DNA of 56,514 nt, from positions 1 to 56,514 of the forward strand of contig JBDIWC010000026.1 of the NCBI GenBank assembly GCA_039794085.1, given 5' to 3'. Under the pieces are notes generated by a model. It made no database searches. It was not told the origin of the DNA and worked only from the letters and a program-made list of their open reading frames with translations. The stretch is from Gemmatimonadales bacterium (GTDB lineage: Bacteria; Gemmatimonadota; Gemmatimonadetes; Gemmatimonadales; GWC2-71-9). This document shows positions 18,672 to 48,263 of this stretch, one piece after another. Position 1 is the first letter of the stretch. Every line of letters begins with the position of its first letter. The translations under genes were made by a program, and so were the position numbers.

Positions 18672-18704
18672 ATTCCTCCGCCGTCAGTGATGTCACCGTC
18701 TTAC

Positions 18705-20548: not shown

Positions 20549-20589
20549 CGTCATCAAGCCGAGCTGAGGCGCCCGGACGAAGGTGCGCA

Positions 20590-23524: not shown

Positions 23525-23551
23525 CTCGGCGCGATAGCAGGAGTCTCCGGC

Positions 23552-23840: not shown

Positions 23841-23872
23841 CGAGCCGCGGGGCGCCCAGACGAGGGCCCGCC

Positions 23873-24058: not shown

Positions 24059-24111
24059 CGGGTGCAGGGTGGGCGGGGCGACCGTGGTGAGACCCGATCA
24101 GGGAGGACCAG

Positions 24112-24288: not shown

Positions 24289-24346
24289 TCGGGAGATGCT
24301 CCGTCATGCACCATCTGATATCAACGAACACTCCCACAGAGGGAAG

Positions 24347-30357: not shown

Positions 30358-30417
30358 GTTGTCGCGCGTTCTGTGCGGACAACGGGAACGTCAACACCAT
30401 AGTGTCGGAGGAACAAC

Positions 30418-33963: not shown

Positions 33964-35686
33964 CTCTCCTTGCGTCGCTCAAAGGCAGGGTGACCACGAA
34001 GGTTGCCCCACCCCCGTGCTTGTCTTCCAGAGTGAGGCTACCTCCGTGGCGCGAGACGATCTCCTTCGAGATCGGGAGCCCGAGACCCGTGCCCTGGTGT
34101 TTGGTCGTAAAGAACGGCCGAAAAATGTCGGGACGGCGATCCGGGTTTACCCCCGGTCCCGCATCAGATACACCCATCCAGACCTCCGGGGCGTGACGCG
34201 CGACCCATATCGTCAGGGGTCCACCGCTAACCATGGCCTCGATTCCGTTGAGCAGGAGGTTCACCATCACCTGTACCATCAATTCCGAGTCCACCCGGAC
34301 ATTGACTGGAGTCGGGCACAGCTCCAGCGTGACCTGGACGCCGGCGGCGGCGGCGCGTGGTGCCACGATCGCCGCCGCCCGCTCGACCAGAAGATTCGCA
34401 TCAACCGTGATCTCCTTCAGGGCAGGCGGGCGGGCATACTGGAGGAGCTGGCTCGTCGTCCCGTCGATCCGGTTGAGCTGCTGCTGCGCCTCCGCCAGCA
34501 GGGAACGCGAGGGGTCCCCTTCGGGGATGGTGCGCAGCGCCAGCTCGATCGCCCCCCGAACACCCGTCAGCGGGTTTCGAATCTCGTGGGCAACCCCGCT
34601 GGCCAGCTCACCGACGGTGGCAAGCTGCTGAGCGCGCTCCATGTCCCGCGCATGCAATCGCTCCACCTCTTGCCGGGACCGATCCAGGTTGGCGGCCATC
34701 GCATTGAATGAGTCGATCAGTGTCCCCACTTCATCCGTGGAATGAACCGGGATGGGGGTGAACCGCTCCGCTCTCCCCAACCGGCTCGCGGCGTCCGCGA
34801 CCTCGCGGAGGGGGTTGGTCACGGACCGGGACGTGACGATCCCCGTCACCGCAATCACAACCACCAGCAGGATGGCACCGAGCGTTGCGGACGTCCGGAG
34901 CCGGGAAAGAGGCGCCAGTGCGAATTCAACCGGGAGTGTGGCGACGAAGGCCCAGCCGGATTCGGGTATGGGGGCGACGCTGATGAGGCTCCCCCCGGCC
35001 CCGGCCACCTGATGCGAACCGGCGGAGTCGAGGGTGATGGAGCGCGCCAACTCCGTCAGGTCGCCGGCCGCATGGTCGTGAACTCCGAAGATCGGCTGGC
35101 CATCGCGCTCAAAGACCGCCGATTCCACCCCGGCCAGCAGATGTTCCGGCACCGAGAAAATCCTCCGAAAGTCCTCTTCTCGAACGTGCCCTTCCAGCCA
35201 GGCGATCCGATCACTCGACACCGGTGCTGCGACCAGATAGGCCAGCACCCGGCCCCGGTCTCGGTGCACGATCACCGACGCGCCGTCCCAGTTGGTCGCG
35301 GGAGCCACTGATGGCCAGTGGGGCGCACTCTGCCTGAGCGCCACACTCGCGAGCACCCGTCCGTCTGGCAGGGCGAGACGCAATCCGTCGAACACCCCGT
35401 TTTCCGGCAGACTTCGGACGAGGAGATCCGACAGTTGCTGCCGCGACATGGTCTCCAGTGAACCGACTTCGGGCAATTGGCCCGCGATGGTCTGGAGCAA
35501 CAGCCGTTCCCGGCTCAATTCGGTCGTGAAGTGAATCGCCTGCGCCTCGGCGATGGACTCGAGTGCCCGACGAGCCTGGCCCAGAATGGCACCACGACTG
35601 ACCGTATACCCGACCGTAATGACGATCAGGAGCGGCGTAACCCCGAAGGCCAGGAGGAGCAGGAGGAGTTTGCTGCCAAGGCTCAC
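33950..35686 (-). CDS. Sensor histidine kinase (periplasmic Cache-like domain, HAMP, HisKA, HATPase); start inferred at GTG 35686
   Basis: Two TMs; DEVGTL..SFN.M; AHEIRNPL; NLLLNG; PFFTTK..GTGLGL. Confidence 0.93.
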   Translation of the reverse strand: MSLGSKLLLLLLAFGVTPLLIVITVGYTVSRGAILGQARRALESIAEAQAIHFTTELSRERLLLQTIAGQLPEVGSLETMSRQQLSDLLVRSLPENGVFDGLRLALPDGRVLASVALRQSAPHWPSVAPATNWDGASVIVHRDRGRVLAYLVAAPVSSDRIAWLEGHVREEDFRRIFSVPEHLLAGVESAVFERDGQPIFGVHDHAAGDLTELARSITLDSAGSHQVAGAGGSLISVAPIPESGWAFVATLPVEFALAPLSRLRTSATLGAILLVVVIAVTGIVTSRSVTNPLREVADAASRLGRAERFTPIPVHSTDEVGTLIDSFNAMAANLDRSRQEVERLHARDMERAQQLATVGELASGVAHEIRNPLTGVRGAIELALRTIPEGDPSRSLLAEAQQQLNRIDGTTSQLLQYARPPALKEITVDANLLVERAAAIVAPRAAAAGVQVTLELCPTPVNVRVDSELMVQVMVNLLLNGIEAMVSGGPLTIWVARHAPEVWMGVSDAGPGVNPDRRPDIFRPFFTTKHQGTGLGLPISKEIVSRHGGSLTLEDKHGGGATFVVTLPLSDARRDAGE

Positions 35687-35754
35687 CTGTGCGGCTCGGT
35701 CCCGCACGGGGTCCCGAACGCCTGAGCCAGCCGACGTCACCTGACCCAGCACTT

Positions 35755-35768
35755 GGGGGAAATGACCC
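35755..35768 (-). promoter_or_regulatory. Enhancer-type box GGGTCATTTCCCCC upstream of the two-component operon
   Basis: Exact reverse-complement match to the 23894 box. Confidence 0.65.
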
Positions 35769-35984
35769 AGTGAACAAGGTGCATGGAAGCGCACAACATA
35801 CCAGACAACCCCCGTGTCGCCAGTCGATTGATTCAATCACAGTGAAAGAACGAATCCTCCGCGTGGAGGACGTGCAACGATCAGACCGTGCCGGTCCCTT
35901 GCCCTGACGTTCAACTCCACGACGGCCCCCGACACTGCGCCCTACACCCCATTCCGGTTCCCGGACACCTGGGCATCGTATCAG

Positions 35985-36695
35985 TCAACGTTTGTGATGC
36001 CCGCTGCCCTCTGTCTGCCGCCACGTCCAATGTTCATAGACCCCGGCCCAATACATACCGAAAGTGAACGCGAAGGCGAGTTCCTCCAGCGGGGTGGTGT
36101 GGATGAGAATGCCGCTCAGATCGGAAAGATTCCAGACGCGCTCAACATACCCCGGCGAGAGAAGCCCAAGGCCCTCGACAAAGATCAAATAGTAACCGGT
36201 AAAGAGGAAGCCTCCGACCCAGGTTTTCCGCGTCAGATCCGGTCGGCAGAGGATCGTCGCGATCGATCCGACCACCATCGAGGCCAGCGCGGGGTATATC
36301 GGGTTCCACGGGAGGAAATAGAGGGCTGGAAACGTCAGGAACGGCGCGGCAATCGCCCACTTGTGGTGCCGGTGCCGTGGGTGGCGCCTGTATTGCTCCT
36401 CGACGGGGTTGATCTGGGAACCTGTCCACACGTTGTAAAGCACCGCTCCGACTCCTCCGATGCCGAACGAGAAGATCAGGCTTTCGATGTCGAACCCGGT
36501 CCGAAGCGCCAGATCGAACAGGCTTGGCGGCATCCAGTACTCCGGAACGAAAAGTGGCTCCGTCAAGCCGAAGGGTGCAGTAAAGACACTCGCCCACAGC
36601 ATGGCTCTCCGATGGGGCCTGAAGACGACGTACAGAACTGCCCATGGCGCGAGGAAGGCGCTGGACCATATCAGCCATACGTAGTGGTCGGGCAT
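35985..36695 (-). CDS. Lycopene-cyclase-domain membrane protein
   Basis: MPDHYVWLIWS; TEPLFVPEYW.PPSLFDLA..GFDIES; PLEELAFAF. Confidence 0.8.
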   Translation of the reverse strand: MPDHYVWLIWSSAFLAPWAVLYVVFRPHRRAMLWASVFTAPFGLTEPLFVPEYWMPPSLFDLALRTGFDIESLIFSFGIGGVGAVLYNVWTGSQINPVEEQYRRHPRHRHHKWAIAAPFLTFPALYFLPWNPIYPALASMVVGSIATILCRPDLTRKTWVGGFLFTGYYLIFVEGLGLLSPGYVERVWNLSDLSGILIHTTPLEELAFAFTFGMYWAGVYEHWTWRQTEGSGHHKR

Positions 36696-36889
36696 GGTCC
36701 CCTCCGCGATTGCGTGCGCGCGGTTGTGGCATTCGACGCGTACCCTATCAGTCGGGATGGGCGCGACATTGAGTGCTTCGCCATCCCGTGTGTCACGCTC
36801 TTCGCAAGTCCGGTGCCAGCGGAGCTGATTCCGGGCGGAATCACCCTCCTCACTCAAACGATACGATGGCCGCCGGGTCGACGCCAGCC

Positions 36890-37065
36890 TGACGATGCCG
36901 ACAAGCGTGATGATCGCCACCACGCCCATGTTGATCCAGTAAGCCGGCGCCATCATGGTATGTGAGCCGCGATCGACGCCGCCCCCGTGGCCATGACCAT
37001 GGCGAAGTAGCCGGGAAGGAGATCCCGCGACTCGGCGATGATCGTGCGGAACGCGGTGTCGGGGC
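36890..37065 (-). pseudogene. Internally deleted TDT/SLAC1 (tellurite-resistance/dicarboxylate) transporter remnant
   Basis: PGYFAMVMATGAASIAAH (TM1 motif) directly followed, in another frame, by PAYWINMGVVAIITLVG (an internal motif). Confidence 0.7.
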
Positions 37066-38283
37066 CTACCCCGTCCGCTGCGACTCCGGCGCAAACCACC
37101 GGGCGTGCCCCTGCAGCGCCAGCAGATTGACGACCAGGCACGCAAGCGCGAACTCCGACAGCAGCATGAAGGCGACCGCGTACGAACCGGTGACGTCGCG
37201 CACGACACCGAGAACCAGGGGCGGGAAGAAGCCGCCGAGACCCCCTGCGGCGCCGACCAGACCGGCGAGCGTCCCGGTCTGTCCCGGAAACCGGTCGGCC
37301 ACGAGCTTGAACACCGCGCCATTGCCGAGGCCAAGCACGGCGGCCGACCCGAGAAAGCCGACGGTCACCCCGACCATCCCCGGCTCGAATGCCAACACGA
37401 TGGCAAAGAACGCCTCCGCCACGAACACCAGGTTCAGCACGATCGCCCCACCCCAGCGGTCGGAGAGCGCGCCACCGAGCGGGCGGGCGAGGGTCGCCAT
37501 GATCACGAAACCGGCCGTGCGCGCCCCCGCGTCGGTTGGCGTGAGACCATGCGTCGCCGTCAGGAAGGATGGCAGAAAGTTGCCCATCGCCACAAACCCG
37601 CCGAAGGTCACGAAATAGAAGAGGACAAGCACCCACGCCACGGGCTGGTGGACGAGCACCCGGGCCCGCGAGGCGAGCGTCTCCGTGCGCGGTGCGAAGT
37701 GCGGACTTTCCCGTCCCATGACCCAGAAGATCACCGCGAAGGCCGCGACGAGCGGAACGAAGATCCAGAACGCGGAGGGCCAACCCGGACCGGCGGCCAC
37801 GCGCGGCGCGGCCAGCGCCGCGACCGCCGTCCCGATGTTGCCCATGCCGTAGATGCCCAGCGCAAAACCCTGCCTGTGGGCCGGAAACCAGGAGGCCACA
37901 AACGGAATCCCGACGGCAAACGACGCACCGGACACGCCGAGCAGGAACCCCGCGCCGAGGAGTGCGCCATAGGAGCGCGACAGCGCCGCCAGGGCGAGCG
38001 GGACCACGAGCAGCGCCATCAGGACGGGGAAGACCCGTCGGGCACCCCAGCGATCGGTCAGGATGCCCGCCGGAACACGCAGCAGCGATCCGAGGATCAC
38101 CGGTATCGACACCAGGAATCCCACCTGAGTATTGGAGAGTCCATACATGTCGCGGAACTGTGACGCGAGAGGGGCGATCAGACCCCACACCGAGAAGCTG
38201 AGTGTGAAGGCGATCGTCGCCAGCACCAGCGCACGCATCCCTCCGCGGGTCTCCCCGGCACGGGCGATGTTCGTTCCCGACAT
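37066..38283 (-). CDS. narK: NarK family nitrate/nitrite MFS transporter
   Basis: PVILGSLLRVPAG.LTDRWG; GASFAVG; QGFALGIYGMGNIG; RPLGG.LSDR; GNGAVFK; GGLGGFFPP. Confidence 0.95.
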   Translation of the reverse strand: MSGTNIARAGETRGGMRALVLATIAFTLSFSVWGLIAPLASQFRDMYGLSNTQVGFLVSIPVILGSLLRVPAGILTDRWGARRVFPVLMALLVVPLALAALSRSYGALLGAGFLLGVSGASFAVGIPFVASWFPAHRQGFALGIYGMGNIGTAVAALAAPRVAAGPGWPSAFWIFVPLVAAFAVIFWVMGRESPHFAPRTETLASRARVLVHQPVAWVLVLFYFVTFGGFVAMGNFLPSFLTATHGLTPTDAGARTAGFVIMATLARPLGGALSDRWGGAIVLNLVFVAEAFFAIVLAFEPGMVGVTVGFLGSAAVLGLGNGAVFKLVADRFPGQTGTLAGLVGAAGGLGGFFPPLVLGVVRDVTGSYAVAFMLLSEFALACLVVNLLALQGHARWFAPESQRTG

Positions 38284-38296
38284 TCGACGGAAGCCC

Positions 38297-39721
38297 TCAA
38301 CGCCGTCGGACGAAGCGCGCTTCCACATGGTTGACCACCGCCCAGATCGATTCCGGTGACAGGACCGTCCGGAATGACGGCATCAGGGGCGGTATCCCGG
38401 CGGCTACCCGAAGGTAGATCTGCACCGGATCGGCTCCGGCCTTGAGCTCCCCGGCGGCGAGGTTGGCGGGTGGGGTGGGAAGCGAGGCCGCGACCGGACC
38501 GTCACCCCGGCCGAGTTCCCCGTGACAGGACATGCAGTGAGTGCGGTAGGTGGCCTCACCCTCGCCCGCGGTGTCCGATTCGAAGGCCGGCCGGGGAGGA
38601 ACCTCCACGGCCGGGCCGACGGGCGGACGATTCTTCCACAGCGCGTCCAGGACGGCGACCAGCGACGTCACCTGGGCCTCGGTGAGTTGAGAGAACGCGG
38701 GCATCCCCGACAGGGGAAGGCCATGGCGGATGATCCGGCGGAGATCGTCATCCGATGCCATGCCGTTGATGGTGGAGATGAAGCGGTATTGGCCGGCGGT
38801 CAGGTCGCGCGGAGTGGCACGGAAGGTGGGCGAGGCGGCCCCCGCACCATCACCCCGGCCGGACACGCCGTGGCAGCGCGCGCATTGGGACACATAGAGC
38901 GCGGGCCCGGAGAGCCGTCCGTCCGGGAGCGTCTCCGCGCCGAGGGGACCGGAGGCACCGGCGACGGAGGCCCGCCCCAGCAGGGTGCCCGCCAGCGCCA
39001 GCACCAGCGCGGCACCTCCCAGCCCGTAAAGCAACCACGATTTGTCGCTGCGCAGGGCAAACTCCCATCGCCGCTGGAACCGGTAGCGCATGGTGCGTAC
39101 CGACTGGTACGGTCGCACGAAGTAGTTGATCGGGTAGGTCCACACATGGACCAGTTTGGTGAACGGGAAGTAGGCGAAGAAGGTGAGGGCCAGAAGCACG
39201 TGAAGCTGAGTGAGGAGGCTCGCCGCGCTCATCAGCTCGGGTTGCGGCGCCAGTTGCCAGAGGCTGGCAAACCAGGAGGAGGCATTGTAGGCGATCCCGA
39301 AGATCCGATGGACCAGCACCTGGTAGAGTGCCAGTCCCACGATCGGAATGAGGAATAGGTGCACCACGTAGTCGTCCACCTGGCTCATCGCCCGGACCTC
39401 GGGAATCGCGAGTCGGCGATAGAGAGCGATCCCGGAACCGACCAGGATCGCCCCTCCTCCGATCAGAGCCGACCAGAAGAAGAACTGGATGGCCACTTCC
39501 GAACCGAGCAACCCGCCAAACAGCCCGGCCAGGTGGCCGAGCAGCACGAGGACGATGCCCCAATGGAGCAGCAGCGAGGCCACTCCGAGCGTCCGGCGGT
39601 TGAACAAACCGCTGGCGCGGGTGCTCCAACTGTAGGGGCGGGTCACCATCCGCATCACCGGGACGACAAAGAACAGCGTCGCACAGATGTAGGGGTACAC
39701 ACCCCACAGGAAGCGGGTCAC
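38297..39721 (-). CDS. narI: Nitrate reductase gamma subunit fused to a two-heme cytochrome c
   Basis: Four heme-b His (LLHWG...GHL; LHV...PFTKLVH), an extra TM, then CARCH...MPAF and CMSCH...MPSF. Confidence 0.92.
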   Translation of the reverse strand: MTRFLWGVYPYICATLFFVVPVMRMVTRPYSWSTRASGLFNRRTLGVASLLLHWGIVLVLLGHLAGLFGGLLGSEVAIQFFFWSALIGGGAILVGSGIALYRRLAIPEVRAMSQVDDYVVHLFLIPIVGLALYQVLVHRIFGIAYNASSWFASLWQLAPQPELMSAASLLTQLHVLLALTFFAYFPFTKLVHVWTYPINYFVRPYQSVRTMRYRFQRRWEFALRSDKSWLLYGLGGAALVLALAGTLLGRASVAGASGPLGAETLPDGRLSGPALYVSQCARCHGVSGRGDGAGAASPTFRATPRDLTAGQYRFISTINGMASDDDLRRIIRHGLPLSGMPAFSQLTEAQVTSLVAVLDALWKNRPPVGPAVEVPPRPAFESDTAGEGEATYRTHCMSCHGELGRGDGPVAASLPTPPANLAAGELKAGADPVQIYLRVAAGIPPLMPSFRTVLSPESIWAVVNHVEARFVRRR

Positions 39722-40392
39722 GCGGGCACCTCCGGTCGGCGGGTTCGTTCCATCAGGGGGGCCTCGAGGACCGGCAGGCGCCGACCGGCCTCCGGGACCG
39801 GTTCCGGCGGCCGCCAGGCGGGAACATCGCCCAGGGACTGGATGTCCTCCGCGATGGTGCTCTCGAGGGCCTCGATCAGGAGCGCGTAGGGACTGGTGTA
39901 CTGATTCAATTTCTCCTTCAGGGGACCCAGTCCCGGGCGTACATACCGCTCGAGGAGCCTCCGCCGAATCCCGATCCGATCCTCCGCACGCCGCCGCACG
40001 CTGATCCCCAGAAACTCCACCAGCGCCGGCAGGTAGTCGGGCAGTTCCCGGCCCGAGAGTTCGAATCCGAAGTGACGGTAGATGGCCGAGAGTTCGAGCA
40101 TGTAGGTGTTCCGGCCCGAGGTGGCGATGCCGCGGCAGGTCGATGGTTCCTCGAAGAGATAGGCTCCGAGATAGAGGGGACAGGGGGGCGACAGCTCCAG
40201 CGTCTGGACGTACTCGTCCCGTGACGAGGCCACGGGATCCGCCACGAAGAGCCGCACCGGCTCCAGTTCCGGCACGATCTCGGCCTCGAGTCGTGCCAGG
40301 AGGGAACGGGTTTTCGCTTCCTCACGGTCGTCGGGATGGAGGAGCAGCTCGGCGATCAGCTCGTAGCTCGGTGCCAGCCATCGGGTGTGCAT
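39718..40392 (-). CDS. narJ: Molybdenum cofactor assembly chaperone (NarJ)
   Basis: EYVQTLE..PPCPLYL; ELPDYLP..VEF; SPYALL; lies between narH and narI. Confidence 0.9.
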   Translation of the reverse strand: MHTRWLAPSYELIAELLLHPDDREEAKTRSLLARLEAEIVPELEPVRLFVADPVASSRDEYVQTLELSPPCPLYLGAYLFEEPSTCRGIATSGRNTYMLELSAIYRHFGFELSGRELPDYLPALVEFLGISVRRRAEDRIGIRRRLLERYVRPGLGPLKEKLNQYTSPYALLIEALESTIAEDIQSLGDVPAWRPPEPVPEAGRRLPVLEAPLMERTRRPEVPA

Positions 40393-40395: not shown

Positions 40396-41937
40396 TCAGC
40401 TCCCCACCTCGGGTCGGCCGCCATGGAAGGACGTCCGTCGCCCCGGGGACGCCGTGGGCGTCATCTCGCGGAAGCCCGCAAATCCTCTCTCCAGATACGG
40501 GGCGTTGTCGGTCCGTTCGCGCCGCGTCGTGGGGATGACGAACCGCTCGTGGTAGTGGGCCAGGGCCAGCAGACGGTGCATCGCGCGGGCGTCCTCGACC
40601 GTGAGCCCCACGGCCGTCAGCACCTCGGTGTCCGGCGTCCGCTCGACACGCTCCGAGCGCCGGAAGGCGCGCACGGCCAGCTGCCGGAGCAGAGCGACCC
40701 GCACCGGATCCTCGTTCCCCGCGCTGAACAACCCCGCGAGGAATCGGAGCGGAAGGCGGAACTGATCCAGGTCGGGGAGCACACCCGAGCCGTTCTCCAT
40801 GTTGAGAAGCCCCGTACCGGCCACTGTCCGGACCGGGCTTTCCGGTGGGATGTAGAACAGGCAGGGTAGGGTACGAAACTCGGGATGGAGGGGTAGCGCG
40901 ATCTTCCACTCGTTCACCATGCGGTACACGGGCGAGCGGCGGCAGGCATCCAGCCACGCCTCGCTGATACCCGCCTCCCGGGCGGCGGCCTGTACCACCG
41001 GGTCATGAGGATCGAGAATGATGTCCCGCTGTGCGTCGACCAGATCCTTCTCGTCGGCGTTGGCCGCCTCCGCGACCCGGTCCATGTCATACAGGAGAGG
41101 GCCGAGATACCGGATCCGGCCCGGGCAGGCCTGGAAACATGCCGGAGGCTGTCCGGTTTCCAGCCTGGGATAGCAGAGCAGGCACTTCTCCATCTTGCCC
41201 GTGCGCCAGTTGTAATAGGGCTTCTTGTAGGGACAGGCGGAGATGCAGTAGCGCCAGGCCCGGCAGCGGTTCTGGTCGATCAGGACCACCCCGTCCTCGT
41301 CGCGCTTGTAGGCGGCTCCGCTCGGGCAGGCCGCGACGCACCCCGGGTTGAGGCAGTGATTGCAGATCCGCGGCAGGTACATGATGAAGGCGTCGCGGAA
41401 CCGGAGAAACGCGCGTCGCTCGTCGTCGGACATCCCGGCGAAGTTGACATCCTGTCCACCGAACCCGTCGTCCGTGGCACCGGCGCCGTTGTCCTCCCAG
41501 TTGGCGGCGTACTCGATCGGGATGTCCTCTTCCCCCGTGATCTGGGACGTGGGCCGCGCTACCGGCTGCGAGTACCGGGTGGCCTTGTCCGAATGGAGAT
41601 CCTCGTAAGTGAAGGTGAACGGCCCCTTGCCGTAGTACTCCTCCATCTGGGGCACGACCGGGTTGTAGAACAGGTTCATCATGGTCCAGAACCGTGACCC
41701 GATGCGAAGGCGCGGCGTGTCCTGTCCGGGACGGTGCTCCCAACCTCCCCGGTACTTCTTCTGGTCCTCCCACTGCTTCGGATAGCCGATCCCCGGCTTG
41801 GTCTCGACGTTGTTCCAGAACATGTATTCCGCGCCCTCGCGGTTGGTCCACACGTTCTTGCATGCCAATGTGCAGGTGTTGCACCCCAGACACTTGTCCA
41901 GGTTGAACACCATGGCCATCTGCTGCTTCACCCGCAT
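40396..41937 (-). CDS. narH: Nitrate reductase / nitrite oxidoreductase beta subunit
   Basis: CLGCNTCTLAC, CNHCLNPGCVAAC, CRAWRYCISAC and CLLC...CFQAC Fe-S motifs; ALPLHPEFRTLP. Confidence 0.96.
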   Translation of the reverse strand: MRVKQQMAMVFNLDKCLGCNTCTLACKNVWTNREGAEYMFWNNVETKPGIGYPKQWEDQKKYRGGWEHRPGQDTPRLRIGSRFWTMMNLFYNPVVPQMEEYYGKGPFTFTYEDLHSDKATRYSQPVARPTSQITGEEDIPIEYAANWEDNGAGATDDGFGGQDVNFAGMSDDERRAFLRFRDAFIMYLPRICNHCLNPGCVAACPSGAAYKRDEDGVVLIDQNRCRAWRYCISACPYKKPYYNWRTGKMEKCLLCYPRLETGQPPACFQACPGRIRYLGPLLYDMDRVAEAANADEKDLVDAQRDIILDPHDPVVQAAAREAGISEAWLDACRRSPVYRMVNEWKIALPLHPEFRTLPCLFYIPPESPVRTVAGTGLLNMENGSGVLPDLDQFRLPLRFLAGLFSAGNEDPVRVALLRQLAVRAFRRSERVERTPDTEVLTAVGLTVEDARAMHRLLALAHYHERFVIPTTRRERTDNAPYLERGFAGFREMTPTASPGRRTSFHGGRPEVGS

Positions 41938-41956: not shown

Positions 41957-44900
41957 TCACCGCAGGTTATAGCGGGCGATCAGCTCCCGCTCCTGGTAGA
42001 TCACCTTTTTCGCGCCCGACTCCAGCGGCATCTTCCGGATCAGCACCGCACAGTCGCGCTCCGACGGACTGGGCCCCCAGTAGTTCAGGAAGTAGGTCCA
42101 GTTGGCATATCCGCCGATCATGGTGGACGGGTTCATCATGATCCGGGTCGGCGCATTGTTGTTTCCCCCTCGGAGGTCGCTGACCCCCCGGGTGCGCGCC
42201 AGGGGCGAGAAGGGCACGTTGATGTGCCGCTCCGAGGAGTGGTACATGATCGCCGAATCCCGGGGTATCGTGCCGCTCAGCACCGCGCGCACCACGGAGA
42301 TCCCGTTCTCGTTGTAGATCTCCACCCAGTCGTTGTCCTTGACGTCGATCTCGCGGGCATCCTCCTCGTTCAGCCACACGACCTGTCCCCCGCGGAACAT
42401 GTTCAGCATGTGCCACGTGTCCCAGAACATGCTGTGGATCGACCACTTGCCGTGCGGGGTCAGGAAGCGGAAGACCTTCGAGGCCGACTCGGCCGTTCCC
42501 GGCTGACAGTCGCCGATCTGCACCATGTCCACCGGAGGCTTGTAGACCGGCAGTGCCTCGCCGAGTTCCCGGTAGGCCCGGTGGTCGAAGTAGATCTCCT
42601 GCCGGCCGCTCAGGGTGTGGAACGGTTTCAGCGTCTCGATGTTGAGGGTCCAGGGACAGTAGGTCCGCCCCGGACTTTCGATCGCCGACCAGTGGGGCGA
42701 GGTGAGACTCCGTCGCGGCTGGGACTCGAGATCGGGGAAGTGATGGTGGATCTCCCGATCACCCTCGACGAGGTGCGCCAGCGGAACCCCACAGCGCCGC
42801 TCCAGATTCTGGAAAATCATGTGCGACACCTCGCCGTCGCTCTCGGGCGAGATGCGCAGGATCACCTCCGCCACCTGCCTCGGATCCTCCAGGGAGGGTC
42901 GGCCATTCTTCTCGCCGACCAGATGGCTCGCCTTGAGGTCGGCATACACCTGGGTCAGGTCACCCGTGATCCCCTTGGCTCCGAAACCATCCGGCCGACA
43001 GACCTTGGGACCGAACGTCGTGTACTTGTCCAGGATGCTGCCATAGTCCCGCCGGACCACGTGGATCGCGGGGAAGGTTTTCCCCGGCACCGGTTCGACG
43101 TCTCCCGACTTCCAGTCCTTCAACTCTCCCATCGGCTGGGCGAGCTCGTCCGGGCTGTCGGTGATCAGGGGAGTGAGGACCAGGTCCTCCACCTCCGTGG
43201 GGAGGTATTCCGCGGCCAGTTCGCTCACCTTCGCGGCCACGGCCTTGAAGGCCTCCCAGTCGTGGCGGGTTTCCCACGGGGGGTCGTGGGCCGGCGTGAA
43301 GGGGTGGAAGAACGAGTGCAGGTCGGTGCAGGTGAGATCGTACTTCTCGTACCAGTGCGCCGTGGGGAGCACGATGTCGGAGTAGTTGGCCGACGAGTCC
43401 ATCCGCAGGTTGACGTTCACCACGAGGTCGAGCTTGCCGAGCGGCGCCTTCTCATGCCATTCCACGTCCTCGACAAGGCCCTTGGCGCGGTCCTCACCCA
43501 GCACGTTGTTATGGGTGCCGAGGAGATGCTTGAGGGCGTACTCGTGGCCCCGCATGCTGGTTCCTATCAGATTTCCCCGATAGATCCAGAGCACCTTCGG
43601 GTGATTGTCGGCCGCGTCCACGTCCTCCAGGGCAAACTTGAGCGTCCCCGCCTTGAACCCCGCCACCACATGGTCCCGGATCGCCGCGTCGTCCGTGGCC
43701 CCCGCGGCCCGCGCCTCGCGCACCACGGCCAGCGGGTTCTTCTTGTCGAACTGCGGATAGAACGGCAGCCACCCCAAGCGGACCGCCATCATGTTCTGGT
43801 CGGCCACGTGCCGGCCCTTCGCCGGAAACTGCGTGGCCCAGGGCGCCCAGAGCGGATCGAGCACCATCCCATCGTAGCGCCACTGGTCGGTATGGAAATA
43901 GAAGTACGACGTGCTGTTCTGGTGCCGGGGGGGACCACCCCAGTCCGCCGCATTGCCCAGGGTTCCGATGGCGGCGTAGGGGCGGATCTTCTCGGTCCCC
44001 ACGTAGTGGGCGAATCCACCACCGTTCTTCCCCATGCAGCCCGTGAGGATCCCCATCACCGCCTGGGCCCGGTAGGTGAGCGAGCCGCCGTGGTACCAGT
44101 GGAGCACGCCGGATCCGGTGATGAAGAGGCTCTTCCCCTCGGTTTTCTCCGCATTGTCCGCCCATTCCCGGGCCACTCGAGTCACCAGGGCCCGATCCAC
44201 CCCGGTCTCCTGTTCCTGCCATGCCGGAGTGTAGGGAAGGTCGGGATCATCGTACCCCACCGGGTAGTCGCCCGGGAGCCCGCGCGACACGCCCATCTGC
44301 GCGAGCAGCAGGTCGAAGGCCGTGGTCACAAGAACCTCACCGTTCCGGGTCCCCACCCGGCGCGCCGGGACGGTCCGGATGACCGCCCGGGCCGCTTGCC
44401 CCTTGCCCTCGGTCTTCCCCAGGGAGGTGTCGAAGGTGTCGGTGAAGTCGGCGAACTGCACCCGAACCTCCTCCGACGTCCCATCGTCGGCATCGAGCAT
44501 ACTCAACAACGGATCGAACGCCGCGCCCGACGGGGCATCCTCGGACTTCAGGTTCCAGCGACCGGTTTTCTGCGTCTCCCACCGGAACCCGACCGACCCA
44601 CCGGGAAGCCGCACCTCGCCGCTCCAGCGGTCCATCATGAGCAGCTTCCACTCCGCAAGCTCCTCGCCCTCGTACCCTTCCACGTCGCTGGCGCGGAGGA
44701 ACCGTCCCTTCAGGTGAGTGCCGCCCTCGTGCGGGTCCAGGATCACCAGGAACGGCAGGTTGGTGTACTTCTTGATGTAATCGCGGAAGTAGGGAACCTG
44801 CCGGTCGACGTAGTACTCCGTGAGGATCACATGGATGCACGCGAGCAGGAACGCGGCGTCGGTTCCCGGCCGCACCGGCACCCACAGATCCGCGAACTTG

Positions 44901-45736
44901 GTGACGTCGGAGTAGTTCGGCGCCAGGTTGACGATCTTGCCGCCATTGTACTTGTGTTCCGAGGCGAAATGCGCATCGGGTGTGCGGGTCATCGGCAGGT
45001 TCGATCCGATGACCATCCAGTACGTGCTCTGGTACCAGTCCGCCGACTCGTGGACATCGGTCTGATCGCCCCACATCATCGGCATGACGTGCGGAAGATC
45101 GTGGTACCATTCGTAGAAGCTGAGCATGGTGCCGCCCAGCAGGTTGCAGAAACGATGGCCGGACAGAAAGCTCACCATGCTCATGGCCGGGATGGGCGAG
45201 AAGGACGCCAGGTGATCCGCCCCGTAGCGGCGGATCGTGTGGATGATCGCGGCGGCCCACATCTCGGTGGCCTGATCCCAGGTCGCCCGGGTCCAGCCCG
45301 CCTTGCCGCGCGCCGCCTGATAGGTCCGTTTCCGCTCGGGATCCTCCACGATCGCAGCCCATGCTTCGACCGGCCCCTTGCCCGCGGCGCGTTCGCTCTG
45401 GTAGAAGTCGAACAGCACGCCACGCACGTAGGGATACTTCGGACGGACGGGACTGTAGGGATACCAGGACGAGGAGATTCCCCGCTGGCACCCCCGAGGT
45501 TCGTAGTTCGGCGTCTCCGAATCGATCTGCGGCCAGTCGGTCTTCTGCAGCTCCCAGCAGATCAATCCATCCTTGACGAACACCTCCCACGAGCACGATC
45601 CCGAGCAGTTGACGCTGTGGCTGGTGCGTACCGACCGGTCATAGGACCACCGCTCGCGGTAGAAATCCTCCCAGTCCCGCGGCTCATCGGCCACCCGGAA
45701 CCAGCGAGAGCCACGACCTCCATTCTCAACACTCAT
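41957..45736 (-). CDS. narG: Nitrate reductase / nitrite oxidoreductase alpha subunit (type II DMSO reductase family, no Tat signal), 1259 aa
   Basis: WEDFYRERW; HSVNCSGSC...PRGCQRG FS0 motif; SFYEWYHDLP; TPHGKWSIHS; RBS GGAG before ATG 45736. Confidence 0.95.
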   Translation of the reverse strand: MSVENGGRGSRWFRVADEPRDWEDFYRERWSYDRSVRTSHSVNCSGSCSWEVFVKDGLICWELQKTDWPQIDSETPNYEPRGCQRGISSSWYPYSPVRPKYPYVRGVLFDFYQSERAAGKGPVEAWAAIVEDPERKRTYQAARGKAGWTRATWDQATEMWAAAIIHTIRRYGADHLASFSPIPAMSMVSFLSGHRFCNLLGGTMLSFYEWYHDLPHVMPMMWGDQTDVHESADWYQSTYWMVIGSNLPMTRTPDAHFASEHKYNGGKIVNLAPNYSDVTKFADLWVPVRPGTDAAFLLACIHVILTEYYVDRQVPYFRDYIKKYTNLPFLVILDPHEGGTHLKGRFLRASDVEGYEGEELAEWKLLMMDRWSGEVRLPGGSVGFRWETQKTGRWNLKSEDAPSGAAFDPLLSMLDADDGTSEEVRVQFADFTDTFDTSLGKTEGKGQAARAVIRTVPARRVGTRNGEVLVTTAFDLLLAQMGVSRGLPGDYPVGYDDPDLPYTPAWQEQETGVDRALVTRVAREWADNAEKTEGKSLFITGSGVLHWYHGGSLTYRAQAVMGILTGCMGKNGGGFAHYVGTEKIRPYAAIGTLGNAADWGGPPRHQNSTSYFYFHTDQWRYDGMVLDPLWAPWATQFPAKGRHVADQNMMAVRLGWLPFYPQFDKKNPLAVVREARAAGATDDAAIRDHVVAGFKAGTLKFALEDVDAADNHPKVLWIYRGNLIGTSMRGHEYALKHLLGTHNNVLGEDRAKGLVEDVEWHEKAPLGKLDLVVNVNLRMDSSANYSDIVLPTAHWYEKYDLTCTDLHSFFHPFTPAHDPPWETRHDWEAFKAVAAKVSELAAEYLPTEVEDLVLTPLITDSPDELAQPMGELKDWKSGDVEPVPGKTFPAIHVVRRDYGSILDKYTTFGPKVCRPDGFGAKGITGDLTQVYADLKASHLVGEKNGRPSLEDPRQVAEVILRISPESDGEVSHMIFQNLERRCGVPLAHLVEGDREIHHHFPDLESQPRRSLTSPHWSAIESPGRTYCPWTLNIETLKPFHTLSGRQEIYFDHRAYRELGEALPVYKPPVDMVQIGDCQPGTAESASKVFRFLTPHGKWSIHSMFWDTWHMLNMFRGGQVVWLNEEDAREIDVKDNDWVEIYNENGISVVRAVLSGTIPRDSAIMYHSSERHINVPFSPLARTRGVSDLRGGNNNAPTRIMMNPSTMIGGYANWTYFLNYWGPSPSERDCAVLIRKMPLESGAKKVIYQERELIARYNLR

Positions 45737-46322
45737 GGGAAGGCTCCATGGTGGCGGGTCCCGGTTCGTCACCCAGCTTCCCCGCGATCCGGAACGCCTC
45801 GACAAAGGGACGGAAATCGCGGGCCGTGCCGTAGATCGCCACGACTCCTGAGCGCCTCCGGTCGTAGACCAGGTTGACCACGACGTTGCGGCCCACCGGA
45901 TGCCGGCGTTCGGGGCCCTCGGCCGGATCCCCCTCCATCGCCTGGATCGAGGCATACACCAGGTTGCCGGGATGCACCTGAAACCAGACCTCGAACTCCC
46001 AGTCGCCGATCCGCACGCTGGCCTCACCGCTCTCGAGCGAGGGATCCCCGGGGTCTATCTCCCATTGGAAGACCGGGGGCCAGCCCAGGTACCGATCACC
46101 GGAATCATCCGACATCGGCGACGGGAGGGGCTCGGGCCCCGCCTCACCGTACCCGGCCTCCGGGGCCACGCCCATCCGGTGGAGAGCCACACCCATCGCG
46201 TCGAGGTCGGGCACCTTGTTCTCCTCCAGCAACTCGGCCTGGAGGGGGGTCATCAGGCGCCCAGGGCGATCGGGGGGATCCCCGAGCCGCGGAAGTCGTT
46301 CCTGGTCGATATTCGGCATCAT
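45726..46322 (-). CDS. Hypothetical acidic protein, first gene of the nar operon
   Basis: RBS GGAGA; 198 aa; 3' end overlaps the narG start; no family recognised. Confidence 0.7.
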   Translation of the reverse strand: MMPNIDQERLPRLGDPPDRPGRLMTPLQAELLEENKVPDLDAMGVALHRMGVAPEAGYGEAGPEPLPSPMSDDSGDRYLGWPPVFQWEIDPGDPSLESGEASVRIGDWEFEVWFQVHPGNLVYASIQAMEGDPAEGPERRHPVGRNVVVNLVYDRRRSGVVAIYGTARDFRPFVEAFRIAGKLGDEPGPATMEPSHEC

Positions 46323-46422
46323 CCGTTCTCCCGGTGGCACTGGTGTCGAGGGCCCCGGAACCTGACCGGCGTGCACCCCGAATCTCGCGTCTCCCCTCCA
46401 GGAGAGACGTTACACCGGGGGT

Positions 46423-46481: not shown

Positions 46482-48263
46482 CTACTGAAGCAGGTCCGCG
46501 AGTCGTCGAGTTTCCGGAAGGGGGTCCACGCCAAGTTCGTCGTGCAAGAGGCGGGCACAGACCTCATACTGTGCCCGCGCCTCCGCACGGTGTCCGTGGG
46601 CGGTCAAGGTTCGGATCAGCGTCTGGTGCAGGTCTTCCCGCAGCGGATCGGCGAGCAGGCCCCGGCGGAGCCAGGTGATTCCTCGAAGGGCCTCTCGCTC
46701 CGCAACCCAGAGACCGGCAAGCCGGGCGCTCAGGTCCACGTAACGGTGCCGGAGTTCTGATCGTTCAAGATCGCACCAGCCGGCGTACGGCTCGTCACCG
46801 AAGAGATCGCCGCGGTACAGCTCCAGCGCGGCTTCCAGGTGGTGGATCGCCTCCTCGCGCCGACCCCGGCGCTCCGCGTCGTGCGCGCTGGCAGCGTGCC
46901 GGCGAAACGCGAAGATGTCGGTCCAGTGCGGCGACTCCATGTTGAAGTAGCACAGATCGCCGATATTGCACACGAAGATCCAACGCCGCTGCTCTCGATA
47001 GGGTTCGATGGCCATGCGAAGGGCGTGCAGGACTCCGTGGAGCCGGTTGGCCCCGGTTCGCGCGCCCACTCCGGGCCACAGGCGATCGGCCAGAGCCTCG
47101 CGGCTGATGGGGTTGCCCGCGCCCAGCACCAGAAGCTTGAGCAGAGTGAGTGCCTTGCGGCGCACGAATGCTTCCGGCGGGACGGGTTGCCCGTGCAGCA
47201 GAACATCGAAACTACCGAAACACCGGAGTTCCAGCACAGGCGTGACCGAGCCCGGCACGACATCGGCGGGCGGGCGTCCCGCCCGAGACGGTGCCAGCCG
47301 CACCGCCGCCGCATGGGCCATCGTGAGCAGCGGAACAAGATCGCGACCCGGCGGGATCGGCGGATCCTCTCCCCGGTCCAGCACCACCACTCCGTGCAAT
47401 CGTCGACCCGACCGGAGCGGAAGACACAGCGGAGAGGTCGTCGCGTCCGGGAGACAACGACACGCCTCGGGCCAGGTGCTCCGCACGCTGGTGAGCGCGA
47501 TCCCGTGCCCGTCCGCGACCATGCGGCACCGGAGCCGCCCGTCGGCCGCAGCTGCACAGATGAGCGTCCCCTCGGAGGTGCTGAAGAGGGTAGTCTCACC
47601 CCCATCCGCGTCGTAGAGGGCCAGGGTGCCGCCCCGAGCGCCCGCGGCCTGAATGATGGCATCCAGGCACACTTTTCCACGCACCGCCGGCTCGGGGCCC
47701 GCGTCGTCCACCGCACGATCAACCAGGTCTTGCGCCACGAGCAACCCCGCCTGGATCGCCGTCGCAATCGGCCTGGCAACGACGGACAACAGCTCCGCGC
47801 ATCGCTCGACGGGCGCACGGAGGTCACGCCACGCAAAGTCGATGCATCCCAGCGCTCCGTCCGTCCCCTGGAGAGGAACGCTCACGAAGCAGACGATGCC
47901 GCGGCGGGTCACCCCGTGGCGCAGGAAACGCCGATCGCGATCGAGGTGACGAGCGAGGATCCGTTCCCCGGTGGCGGCGACCAGACCCGGATATCCTGCT
48001 CCCGTCTCGAAACGCACGATCTCCATGAGTGCGTCGCGATCCGGGCCGCAGCACGCCGCGAGGATGAGATCCCCTCCCTCCGGCTCCCGCAGAAAGATTT
48101 CGCAGTCATCGGCACCGGTCGCGGTCCGCAGGAGGTTCACGGCCGCGTCGAGACTGCGGCCAAGATTCTTCGGCGCCAGCTCCGCGGTAAGTCGCCCGAG
48201 GAGCAGAAGATCCCCGGACGGGGTTCCAGGGTTCGCGTTTTCGCCCACATGTCCTGAATCCAT
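46482..48263 (-). CDS. GAF-domain SARP-family (wHTH + BTAD) transcriptional activator
   Basis: N-terminal GAF-like domains; LELRCFGSF..RRKALTLLKLL..SREALADRLWP; ALELYRGDL; DPLREDLHQ..ELGVDPLPET. Confidence 0.9.
   Translation of the reverse strand: MDSGHVGENANPGTPSGDLLLLGRLTAELAPKNLGRSLDAAVNLLRTATGADDCEIFLREPEGGDLILAACCGPDRDALMEIVRFETGAGYPGLVAATGERILARHLDRDRRFLRHGVTRRGIVCFVSVPLQGTDGALGCIDFAWRDLRAPVERCAELLSVVARPIATAIQAGLLVAQDLVDRAVDDAGPEPAVRGKVCLDAIIQAAGARGGTLALYDADGGETTLFSTSEGTLICAAAADGRLRCRMVADGHGIALTSVRSTWPEACRCLPDATTSPLCLPLRSGRRLHGVVVLDRGEDPPIPPGRDLVPLLTMAHAAAVRLAPSRAGRPPADVVPGSVTPVLELRCFGSFDVLLHGQPVPPEAFVRRKALTLLKLLVLGAGNPISREALADRLWPGVGARTGANRLHGVLHALRMAIEPYREQRRWIFVCNIGDLCYFNMESPHWTDIFAFRRHAASAHDAERRGRREEAIHHLEAALELYRGDLFGDEPYAGWCDLERSELRHRYVDLSARLAGLWVAEREALRGITWLRRGLLADPLREDLHQTLIRTLTAHGHRAEARAQYEVCARLLHDELGVDPLPETRRLADLLQ

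What the first reader, a model, noticed from the sequence alone, without database searches (positions are those of the whole stretch)
38297..39721. NarI fused to a two-heme cytochrome c: a Nar/Nxr-type complex with a built-in periplasmic electron port
Seen: one uninterrupted 474-aa ORF holds a full NarI (all four heme-b His), a sixth hydrophobic helix (WLLYGLGGAALVLALAGTLLG), and two class-I cytochrome c domains (CARCH...MPAF and CMSCH...MPSF). Established: canonical NarI is about 225 aa with 5 TMs and a cytoplasmic C-terminus; Thermus thermophilus uses a separate cytochrome c subunit, NarC. Inference: the extra TM puts both c hemes in the periplasm, which would wire the cytoplasmic Mo site to the cytochrome c pool. 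This could feed downstream denitrification enzymes without bc1, accept electrons from periplasmic donors, or export electrons if the enzyme runs as a nitrite oxidoreductase.
Basis: partly seen in the sequence, partly recalled or inferred. Interest (0 to 1): 0.88.

Follow-up and report, generated by a model that had tools for sequence, protein, structure and literature searches.

The report
Nitrate reductase anchor fused to cytochrome c
The gene is intact and joins the membrane anchor of a nitrate reductase (NarI) through one extra membrane helix to a two-haem cytochrome c that is predicted to sit outside the membrane, but it is one member of a widespread, already deposited family whose direction of electron flow has not been tested.

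Summary
On the minus strand, 39721..38297 is one 474-aa ORF. It contains a NarI domain with all four haem-b histidines, a sixth hydrophobic helix, and two class-I cytochrome c domains (CARCH..MPAF, CMSCH..MPSF). It is the last structural gene of a cytoplasmic-type narG-narH-narJ-narI operon, followed by a NarK-like transporter.

Independent contigs from other samples cross the NarI/cytochrome junction without indels. The charge distribution predicts that the c haems face the periplasm. A complex prediction docks the first c domain onto the periplasmic loops of NarI, above the distal haem b (score 0.77; best control 0.00).

The fusion is not new as an architecture:
- All 120 listed homologues have it.
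- 58 of 79 genome loci match through both haem c domains (Planctomycetota, Alpha- and Gammaproteobacteria, Gemmatimonadales).
- The Thiocapsa sp. KS1 orthologue is deposited as "NxrC (modular protein)" of a nitrite oxidoreductase.
- This scan found the same thing before on other DNA (e1-2953783).

The partner NarG proteins form one clade with KS1 (72% identity to the window's NarG). Thermus NarC is the split-gene analogue.

Whether the enzyme reduces nitrate or oxidises nitrite cannot be told from sequence. This genome lacks a photosynthetic reaction centre, RuBisCO, NirS and NirK, but has NosZ. I favour nitrate reduction with a cytochrome c port.

The parts
41957..45736 (-). narG, catalytic Mo-bisPGD subunit (1259 aa from MSVENGG...). 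The listed ORF runs on to 46027, but that upstream part is read-through.
   Evidence: TIGR01580 narG scores 1374 bits (cut-off 1084). It scores 1144 bits to E. coli NarG 1q16_A over residues 17-1236. The FS0 motif HSVNCSGSCSW is present and the N-terminus shows no Tat-like signal.
40396..41937 (-). narH, iron-sulfur subunit (513 aa)
   Evidence: TIGR01660 narH scores 645.8 bits (cut-off 524). Pfam finds Fer4_11 and Nitr_red_bet_C.
39718..40392 (-). narJ-like chaperone (224 aa)
   Evidence: Pfam Nitrate_red_del scores 29 bits (cut-off 22.2). TIGR00684 narJ scores 55.9 bits, just under its cut-off of 59.35.
38297..39721 (-). narI-dihaem cytochrome c fusion, the whole gene (474 aa plus stop)
39092..39715 (-). 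NarI domain, residues 3-210: five predicted TM helices and the haem-b ligands H53, H63, H174 and H192
   Evidence: Pfam PF02665, E 5.8e-51. Aligned to E. coli NarI. Hydropathy analysis.
38972..39091 (-). Conserved basic cytoplasmic linker (..RYRFQRRWEFALRSDKSW) and the sixth TM helix, residues 211-250
   Evidence: The 194-229 loop holds 8 K+R, and there is a hydrophobic peak at 230-248. The linker and TM6 are conserved in fused and short forms and absent from unfused relatives.
38645..38908 (-). Cytochrome c domain 1, residues 272-359 (C280ARCH284, M340). This is the domain predicted to dock on NarI.
   Evidence: Pfam. Invariant columns in the alignment. Interface residues 264-299 and 341-361.
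38324..38569 (-). Cytochrome c domain 2, residues 385-466 (C396MSCH400, M447)
   Evidence: Pfam. C396, C399 and H400 are invariant; M447 is conserved in at least 90% of rows. Both domains together match the dihaem cytochrome 6h5l_B, E 3.6e-28.
37066..38328 (-). MFS transporter, NarK-like (420 aa as listed). It overlaps the end of narI by 32 nt, so the true start may lie further in.
   Evidence: Pfam MFS_1. The best NCBIfam hit is the NarK family TIGR00886 at 237.8 bits, below its cut-off of 311.7.
46482..48263 (-). GAF + BTAD transcriptional-activator-like protein upstream on the same strand. It is a possible regulator, on adjacency only.
   Evidence: Pfam BTAD and GAF_2. No functional link was tested.

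Best explanation
This is the membrane anchor of a cytoplasm-facing NarGHI-type nitrate reductase that carries, on the same polypeptide, a two-haem cytochrome c predicted to lie in the periplasm. It would let the enzyme exchange electrons with periplasmic carriers as well as with the Mo site.

Shown:
- The gene is intact and sits in a narGHJI-narK operon.
- All four b-haem histidines are conserved.
- Both CxxCH motifs and one methionine ligand are conserved family-wide; the second methionine is conserved in at least 90% of rows.

Predicted:
- Six TM helices, with the N-terminus and the C-terminal dihaem part outside.
- The first c domain is packed on the TM2-3 and TM4-5 loops, directly above the distal haem b (ligands H63 and H174).

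Inferred wire: Mo-bisPGD - FS0..FS4 (NarG/NarH) - haem bP - haem bD - haem c1 - haem c2 - soluble periplasmic carrier.

My commitment for this organism is net nitrate reduction, with the c haems acting as in Thermus NarC. On that reading they form a side port at the level of haem bD that passes quinol-derived electrons out to periplasmic acceptors (here NosZ and cytochrome c oxidases) when nitrate is scarce. The port is probably also needed for assembly. The same wire could run the other way, and sequence does not decide the direction.
For: Architecture and ligands.

Operon: NarG, NarH and NarI score over the NCBIfam equivalog cut-offs. NarJ and NarK are the best hits but score just under or under their cut-offs.

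No frameshift at the junction in independent contigs.

Topology follows the positive-inside rule.

Docking: ipSAE 0.77 (three runs: 0.70, 0.80, 0.77) against a best control of 0.00. The runs agree in at least 90% of contacts and the partner pLDDT is at least 86. The tool's calibration has 116 of 157 solved complexes and 2 of 215 mismatched pairs reaching the mark. The interface covers NarI residues 2, 70-82, 138-166 and 248-255, and cytochrome residues 264-299 and 341-361, which include the first CxxCH.

Haem c maturation genes are present in the genome.

Genome context favours a non-phototrophic organism with no sign of the Calvin cycle. There is no Photo_RC, no RuBisCO large subunit, and no NirS or NirK over cut-off. 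NosZ is present, with two haem-copper oxidases (genome 94.7% complete).

Thermus precedent, from passages of the review PMC7694296: NarC is a membrane-bound periplasmic dihaem c and the fourth Nar subunit. It interacts strongly with NarI, is needed for maturation, and is proposed to bridge electrons to Nir/Nor when complex III is repressed.
Against: - No experiment exists for any fused member that I could find.
- The only member tied to a phenotype is in Thiocapsa KS1, a nitrite oxidiser, and its NarG is 72% identical to this one and in the same clade. The opposite direction is therefore equally compatible with the sequence.
- Homology of the c part to Thermus NarC was not tested, because no NarC sequence was on hand.
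- E. coli Lys86, which I recall as needed at the quinol site, aligns to Ala77 here. The position is also unconserved in the unfused sister forms, and the loop alignment is gapped, so quinol oxidation is assumed, not shown.
- The docking job used my own alignment, two halves of one chain, and ligands riding along. Its calibration counts therefore hold only roughly.
- Only NosZ was found as a periplasmic denitrification acceptor.
Confidence: 0.55

Rival explanations
1. The enzyme is a nitrite oxidoreductase (NXR). Nitrite is oxidised at the cytoplasmic Mo site, and the electrons travel outward through the b haems to the fused c haems. The membrane potential helps this step. The electrons then pass to a cytochrome c oxidase, or in phototrophs to the reaction centre.
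For: - The KS1 orthologue is deposited as NxrC of an NXR.
- The window's NarG is 72% identical to KS1's, and both lie in one clade with SH-aLRT 99.
- Cytoplasm-facing NXRs of the Nitrobacter type group with Nar, and Nitrobacter NXR is described with a c-type haem gamma subunit (passages of PMC8387239, and PMC12300631).
- All 7 cultured holders are purple phototrophs (their physiology is recalled, not from a call).
- This genome has two haem-copper oxidases.
Against: - This genome has no reaction centre and no RuBisCO large subunit. Other CO2-fixation routes were not searched.
- Thiocapsa roseopersicina carries a nearly identical NarG (tree branch lengths 0.004 and 0.005), so the enzyme is not peculiar to the nitrite oxidiser.
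- The family is spread across heterotroph-like lineages.
Confidence: 0.2
2. The enzyme is a cytochrome c:nitrate oxidoreductase. The c haems are the entry port. Electrons from a bc-type complex or from periplasmic donors cross the membrane inward through the two b haems to nitrate. The quinol site is bypassed, and nitrate respiration would move more charge per electron pair than the classical redox loop.
For: - The same wire and docking as in the best explanation.
- Lys86 of the E. coli quinol site is not conserved.
- Four Rieske-domain genes and cytochrome b genes are in the genome, so a bc-type feeder is possible.
Against: - Inward electron transfer from a His/Met c haem to nitrate works against the membrane potential with a small driving force. 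This rests on textbook midpoint potentials (recalled), not on any measurement here.
- The missing Lys is shared with unfused relatives, so it says nothing specific about the fused form.
- There is no experimental precedent.
Confidence: 0.2
3. The fusion is an assembly or gene-calling artefact: a missed stop or frameshift between narI and a separate cytochrome c gene.
For: Some database entries start at the internal 'MRT..RWEF' and look like stand-alone TM plus dihaem proteins (P0151, P0152, P0159). One of them lies on a 111,818-base contig.
Against: - Contigs from three other runs cross the junction with no gap.
- 120 of 120 listed homologues from many assemblies carry all three Pfam domains.
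- 58 of 79 genome loci match through both haem c domains in one frame.
Confidence: 0.02

Closest known systems
Thiocapsa sp. KS1 NxrC, deposited as CRI68045.1 'putative Nitrite oxidoreductase, gamma subunit NxrC (modular protein)'; RefSeq names it 'respiratory nitrate reductase subunit gamma'
   Same: It has the same architecture: NarI, linker, TM6 and two CxxCH domains. It sits in the same operon position after narJ. The partner NarG is 72% identical and in the same clade.
   Different: It is about 48-50% identical, is 513 aa long, and has small insertions in the linker. Its host is a purple sulfur bacterium that oxidises nitrite in the light. The window's genome has no reaction centre. I could not read Hemp et al. 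2016 (not held), so I do not know how far the fusion is discussed in print.
Thermus thermophilus NarCGHI, where NarC is a separate membrane-bound periplasmic dihaem cytochrome c
   Same: It is a cytoplasm-facing Nar with two extra periplasmic c haems attached to NarI. It is proposed as an electron bridge to periplasmic reductases without complex III (review PMC7694296, passages).
   Different: NarC is a separate gene at the 5' end of the operon, whereas here the c part is the C-terminus of NarI behind an added helix. Sequence relatedness of the two c parts was not tested.
E. coli NarI (PDB 1Q16 chain C)
   Same: The two align over residues 3-210 (E about 1e-20). All four haem ligands and the five-helix core are shared.
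   Different: E. coli NarI is 225 aa and ends in the cytoplasm after TM5. The TM2-3 loop is 6 residues longer in E. coli, and its Lys86 aligns to Ala77 here.
Kuenenia stuttgartiensis dihaem cytochrome c, PDB 6H5L chain B ('conserved hypothetical cytochrome protein')
   Same: It is the best solved relative of the c part: residues 272-466 align to chain residues 11-215, E 3.6e-28, with both CxxCH motifs aligned.
   Different: It is a soluble stand-alone protein with no NarI part. That it partners a hydroxylamine-oxidoreductase-like protein is my recollection only.
Six-helix NarI without cytochrome c (255 aa), found in Alphaproteobacteria MAGs L063, L064 and L068
   Same: It has the same NarI core, the same WEFALRSDKS linker and a sixth helix. 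The partner NarG proteins are 75-76% identical and nest inside the fused clade.
   Different: It stops right after TM6 with no haem c domain. No cytochrome c gene follows in L064 or L068.

Membership tests
NarI, respiratory nitrate reductase gamma subunit (PF02665 / TIGR00351) | Profile match above the curated cut-off | tested here: met
   PF02665 scores 173.6 bits (cut-off 22.9). TIGR00351 scores 115.5 bits (cut-off 105.55).
NarI, respiratory nitrate reductase gamma subunit (PF02665 / TIGR00351) | Four histidine ligands for two b haems on TM2 and TM5 | tested here: met
   H53, H63, H174 and H192 align to E. coli H56, H66, H187 and H205. They are invariant in 99 sequences.
NarI, respiratory nitrate reductase gamma subunit (PF02665 / TIGR00351) | Encoded with narG, narH and narJ | tested here: met
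   narG and narH score over their equivalog cut-offs. narJ is over the Pfam cut-off and just under the NCBIfam one.
NarI, respiratory nitrate reductase gamma subunit (PF02665 / TIGR00351) | About 225 aa, five TM helices, cytoplasmic C-terminus | tested here: not met
   The protein is 474 aa with a sixth hydrophobic helix at about 230-250. The C-terminal 220 aa carry two CxxCH motifs.
NarI, respiratory nitrate reductase gamma subunit (PF02665 / TIGR00351) | Quinol-site lysine (E. coli Lys86; its role is recalled) | tested here: not met
   Lys86 aligns to Ala77 in a gapped loop. The position is also unconserved in unfused relatives, so this is weak evidence either way.
NarI-dihaem c fusion family ('modular NxrC' of Thiocapsa KS1) | NarI + linker + TM6 + two class-I cytochrome c domains in one chain | tested here: met
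   120 of 120 listed homologues share the three Pfam domains.
NarI-dihaem c fusion family ('modular NxrC' of Thiocapsa KS1) | Partner NarG belongs to the same clade | tested here: met
   A 16-row clade holds all partners of fused or short six-helix NarI, including the window and KS1, with SH-aLRT 99 (quick IQ-TREE tree; the careful search did not finish).
NarI-dihaem c fusion family ('modular NxrC' of Thiocapsa KS1) | Nitrite-oxidising activity | not testable with these tools
   The direction of catalysis cannot be read from sequence.
Class I cytochrome c (PF00034 / PF13442) | CxxCH haem attachment with a distal Met ligand, located in the periplasm | tested here: met
   There are two domains. 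CARCH with M340 and CMSCH are invariant; M447 is conserved in at least 90% of rows. The location is predicted only. Maturation genes are present.
Thermus-type NarC subunit | Separate dihaem c gene at the head of the nar operon | tested here: not met
   No CxxCH ORF lies upstream of narG. The 216-aa ORF at 45726-46376 has no family hit and no CxxCH. The c part is fused to NarI instead.
Thermus-type NarC subunit | Sequence homology of the c part to NarC | not tested
   No NarC sequence was available. The Thermus control genome does not match the NarI family.
Cytoplasm-facing Nar/Nxr (as opposed to periplasmic, Tat-exported forms) | No Tat signal on the alpha subunit; NarK-type transporter in the operon | tested here: met
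   The NarG N-terminus MSVENGGRGSRWFRV.. runs straight into the FS0 motif at residue 40. A NarK-like MFS gene lies downstream.

The most novel reading that the evidence does not exclude
The whole NarI-dihaem c clade is a near-equilibrium, membrane-potential-gated nitrite/nitrate:cytochrome c oxidoreductase that does not use quinol at all. In non-phototrophs such as this hot-spring bacterium, and in the many Planctomycetota of oxygen-minimum zones, it would either double the charge yield of nitrate respiration (bc complex, then cytochrome c, then inward across NarI) or make these lineages unrecognised nitrite oxidisers.
Probability: 0.15. Interest if true: 0.75.

Novelty: new member of a known kind. 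Interest (0 to 1): 0.4.

Why it matters
Nar and Nitrobacter-type Nxr enzymes have their active site in the cytoplasm, while most of the rest of nitrogen-oxide respiration, and the cytochrome c pool, lie in the periplasm. How electrons cross between the two is settled only for the quinol loop of E. coli.

A NarI that carries its own periplasmic c haems is the simplest possible hard-wired link. It occurs in at least 58 sampled species-level genomes, including marine oxygen-minimum-zone Planctomycetota and seven cultured purple bacteria.

This window adds one more member, apparently from a hot spring. It also adds:
- a predicted docking geometry of haem c1 over the distal haem b;
- evidence that the NarG partners form one horizontally spread clade with the Thiocapsa KS1 enzyme;
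- evidence that short six-helix forms without cytochrome nest within that clade.

The family is a good target for biochemistry, because genetically tractable holders exist. The find itself is not a surprise to specialists.

Tried and rejected
There is therefore no AlphaFold model and no fold search, and no haem-haem distances could be measured.

Literature: Hemp et al. 2016 (the KS1 genome paper) is not held by DOI or by PMC id. Nine literature searches found no paper in the held library that describes a NarI-cytochrome c fusion biochemically. The hits I opened were word coincidences. The held library lacks most subscription journals, so this is not proof that nothing is in print.

Quinol site: I considered using the missing Lys86 and the shorter TM2-3 loop as evidence that the fused form lost its quinol site. 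I rejected this because unfused sister forms share both traits.

Stand-alone cytochromes: I looked for stand-alone TM plus dihaem relatives. Most high scorers are fragments of the fused protein on short contigs. A few (P0151, P0152, P0159) may be genuinely split genes or miscalled starts, and I could not fetch their DNA.

Read laying: depth figures come from contigs and were not used to rank anything. The X6 'joint' 39002/39526 has only 21 letters on its short side, comes from a soil contig with 991 other letters in between, and was ignored.

NarG tree: rows left out are L092 (in-frame TGA), L111 (in-frame TAG), and the fragmentary matches of G305, G317, G320 and G326:C83.

Taxonomy: it was not established. 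The only pointer is that the best named hit of this one gene is a Gemmatimonadales MAG (71% identity).
Full report
**1. What is in the sequence**

A GGAGG lies 7 nt upstream of the start, and the start overlaps the stop of the preceding gene by 4 nt.

Pfam finds Nitrate_red_gam at residues 3-210 (E 5.8e-51). It also finds two cytochrome c domains, at 272-359 and 385-466. The NCBIfam equivalog narI is passed (115.5 bits; cut-off 105.55).

Against E. coli NarI (PDB 1Q16 chain C), residues 3-210 align to 6-223. H53, H63, H174 and H192 fall on H56, H66, H187 and H205. The c part is C280ARCH284 ... M340PAF and C396MSCH400 ... M447PSF.

**2. The operon**

The genes on the same strand are:
- narG, 45736-41957, 1259 aa. 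TIGR01580 scores 1374 bits (cut-off 1084). It scores 1144 bits to E. coli NarG.
- narH, 41937-40396. TIGR01660 scores 645.8 bits (cut-off 524).
- a narJ-like chaperone, 40392-39718. It is over the Pfam cut-off; TIGR00684 scores 55.9 against a cut-off of 59.35.
- the fusion gene.
- an MFS transporter whose best family is NarK, at 237.8 bits, under the cut-off of 311.7.

The NarG N-terminus (MSVENGGRGSRWFRV...) runs into the FS0 motif HSVNCSGSCSW at residue 40 and shows no Tat-type signal. The Mo site therefore faces the cytoplasm.

The 216-aa ORF upstream (46376-45726) has no family hit and no CxxCH. A GAF-BTAD regulator-like gene lies further upstream.

**3. Is the fusion an artefact?**

No. 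Runs holding this DNA are hot-spring metagenomes, which are probably the source, and related DNA occurs in groundwater and soil runs. Three contigs bear on the junction:
- A contig from a groundwater RNA library covers 38200-39796 with 93 substitutions and no gap.
- A contig of another run of the probable source sample covers 38832-39800 with no difference.
- A soil contig covers 38869-39528 with no gap.

These are assembled contigs, not raw reads.

Stronger evidence comes from the homologues. All 120 listed (54-96% identity, many assemblies) carry PF02665, PF13442 and PF00034. In an alignment of 99 of them, the four b-haem histidines, both CxxCH motifs and M340 are invariant, and M447 is conserved in at least 90% of rows.

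**4. Topology (predicted)**

Hydropathy gives six helices: about 4-26, 48-70, 78-100, 117-140, 165-193 and 230-250.

K+R counts per loop are:

| Loop | K+R |
|---|---|
| 27-49 | 4 |
| 101-114 | 3 |
| 194-229 | 8 |
| 141-162 | 0 |

This pattern fits the N-out, C-in topology of a five-helix NarI. The sixth helix then carries the C-terminal 220 residues back out to the periplasm. The periplasm is also the only compartment where c haems are attached. That is established knowledge, and the genome has two Cytochrom_C_asm genes.

**5. Docking (predicted)**

I split the chain at residue 256/257 and folded both halves with four haems riding along.
- The c part scored ipSAE 0.77 (runs 0.70, 0.80, 0.77) against 0.00 for the best of three controls.
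- The runs agree in at least 90% of contacts, and the partner pLDDT is at least 86.
- In the tool's calibration, 116 of 157 solved complexes and 2 of 215 mismatched pairs reach the mark.
- Those counts hold only roughly here, because I used my own alignment, ligands were present, and the two chains are halves of one protein.

The confident contacts join NarI residues 2, 70-82 (TM2-3 loop), 138-166 (TM4-5 loop) and 248-255 to cytochrome residues 264-299 and 341-361. That is the first c domain, including its CxxCH.

H63 and H174, the ligands of the distal haem by homology, sit just below these loops. The inferred wire is Mo - FeS - bP - bD - c1 - c2. I know of no solved complex of this kind (recalled, not searched structurally).

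No AlphaFold model could be made, because the machine was busy at seven attempts.

**6. How common it is, and what is known**

In one genome per species (GTDB set), 204 stretches encode a relative.
- Of the 79 loci kept, 58 match through both haem c domains (to residue 440 or beyond).
- By record title these are Planctomycetota (Phycisphaerae, Isosphaeraceae and others), Alphaproteobacteria (Bauldia, Hyphomicrobiales, Rhodovulum), Chromatiaceae, Verrucomicrobiota, and one Gemmatimonadales MAG, which is the closest at 71%.
- Seven are cultured strains: Thiocapsa sp. KS1, T. roseopersicina DSM 217, Thiocystis violacea DSM 207, Thiorhodococcus mannitoliphagus, Thioalkalicoccus limnaeus, Halochromatium glycolicum and Rhodovulum imhoffii. 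All are purple phototrophs by my recollection.

The KS1 protein is deposited as 'putative Nitrite oxidoreductase, gamma subunit NxrC (modular protein)', and by RefSeq as 'respiratory nitrate reductase subunit gamma'. This confirms a lead from an earlier report of this scan on another genome (e1-2953783).

At 50% clustering the full-length family collapses to about three representatives (P0238-P0240), so it is compact.

In a sample of 301 genomes of the window's own phylum:
- 14 have a full-length NarI.
- Only 4 of those, G000 included, have an open frame of 465 aa or more.
- The one other genome of the same genus has none.

The operon is therefore patchy, which fits horizontal spread.

**7. 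The partner NarG**

The window's NarG compares as follows:

| Partner set | Identity to the window's NarG |
|---|---|
| Partners of fused or short NarI in Planctomycetota and Alphaproteobacteria | 75-78% |
| Chromatiaceae, including KS1 | 71-72% |
| Partners of ordinary unfused NarI (Myxococcota, Chitinophaga, Actinomycetota, Neomarinimicrobiota) | 60-61% |
| Second Nar copies in the same genomes | 44-51% |

A quick IQ-TREE tree of 24 rows puts all 16 partners of fused or short forms in one clade (SH-aLRT 99), sister to the unfused set. The KS1 and T. roseopersicina rows are almost identical (branch lengths 0.005 and 0.004). The careful search did not finish, and six rows were left out as broken or partial.

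**8. Variants**

Some Alphaproteobacteria have a 255-aa NarI with the same linker (WEFALRSDKS) and a sixth helix but no cytochrome. Their NarG proteins nest inside the fused clade, which suggests loss of the c part.

Other members carry N-terminal extensions or a third CxxCH domain (P0031 and P0062). One has a single CxxCH (L061).

Unfused relatives end right after TM5.

**9. Function**

The Thermus review PMC7694296 (passages read) gives the closest worked example.
- NarC is a separate membrane-bound periplasmic dihaem c.
- It binds NarI and is needed for maturation.
- It is proposed to pass electrons to Nir/Nor when complex III is repressed.
- The review also notes a similar cluster in Nitrobacter, where electrons run the other way.

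Another review (PMC12300631, passages) describes Nitrobacter NXR with a c-haem gamma subunit.

The window's genome (94.7% complete) contains:
- no reaction centre;
- no RuBisCO large subunit;
- no NirS or NirK over cut-off;
- NosZ;
- two haem-copper oxidases;
- four Rieske-domain genes.

I therefore favour nitrate reduction with a Thermus-like cytochrome c port (0.55). The two other directions of use get 0.2 each.

The missing Lys86 equivalent cannot decide between them, because unfused relatives lack it too.

**10. Verdict**

The periplasmic port is supported by prediction. The architecture is already deposited and widespread, and a split-gene analogue is known. This is a new member of a known kind. 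It is worth biochemical work in the cultured purple-bacterial holders, but it is not a surprise to specialists.

Noticed in passing
window 12228-31437 (+): A copper-resistance block is followed by a 339-aa cytochrome b-like gene. The block holds a CopA-type P-type ATPase (12228-14864), a cupredoxin (14868-15242), a multicopper oxidase (20937-22784) and a CusC/CusB/CusA-like efflux set (24125-30010). The cytochrome b-like gene (30418-31437) has ExtP / cytochrome b6 as its best NCBIfam hits, below cut-off. A 186-aa ORF with no family hit follows it.
   Followed up: partly
L063, L064, L068 (match at 3001-3768): These loci encode 255-aa NarI proteins with the fused family's linker and sixth helix but no cytochrome c. 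No cytochrome gene follows in L064 or L068. Their NarG proteins nest within the fused clade, which suggests secondary loss.
   Followed up: partly
L105 and L106 (NarG of Thiocapsa roseopersicina DSM 217 and Thiocapsa sp. KS1): The NarG of the phototrophic nitrite oxidiser KS1 and that of T. roseopersicina are almost identical (tree branch lengths 0.005 and 0.004). The 'NXR' is therefore not peculiar to the nitrite-oxidising strain.
   Followed up: no
loci L036, L039, L043, L048, L050, L052, L054: All seven cultured strains that carry the fusion are anoxygenic purple bacteria. Their physiology is recalled, not taken from a call. Every other holder is a MAG.
   Followed up: no
L092 (G310:C337) and L111 (G323:C18): The narG homologues of a Phycisphaeraceae MAG and an Armatimonadota MAG each show one in-frame stop (TGA and TAG). 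The narG of the Gemmatimonadales MAG G305 matches in three pieces. These could be assembly errors or broken genes.
   Followed up: no
P0151, P0152, P0159: These database proteins begin at the internal 'MRT..RWEF' of the linker and contain only TM6 plus the dihaem part. P0152 lies on a 111,818-base contig. They may be genuinely split narI/cytochrome genes or miscalled starts.
   Followed up: partly
window 45726-46376 (-): This 216-aa ORF ends 10 nt inside the start of narG. It has no Pfam or NCBIfam hit and no CxxCH. Whether it is a gene is unclear.
   Followed up: partly
window 32560-37334 (-): Downstream of the NarK-like gene lie a protein with a C-terminal lycopene-cyclase domain (35985-37334) and a sigma-54 two-component pair: a HAMP histidine kinase (33950-35836) and a response regulator (32560-33963). 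No link to nar was tested.
   Followed up: no
window 650-1299 (+): A FitA-like ribbon-helix-helix antitoxin gene (650-892) overlaps a 136-aa ORF with no family hit at E 1e-5. This may be a toxin-antitoxin pair.
   Followed up: no
P0031, P0062: Longer family members were seen: an N-terminal extension of about 100 aa (P0031, 592 aa) and a third CxxCH-containing C-terminal domain (P0062, 614 aa, labelled Desulfobacterales).
   Followed up: no
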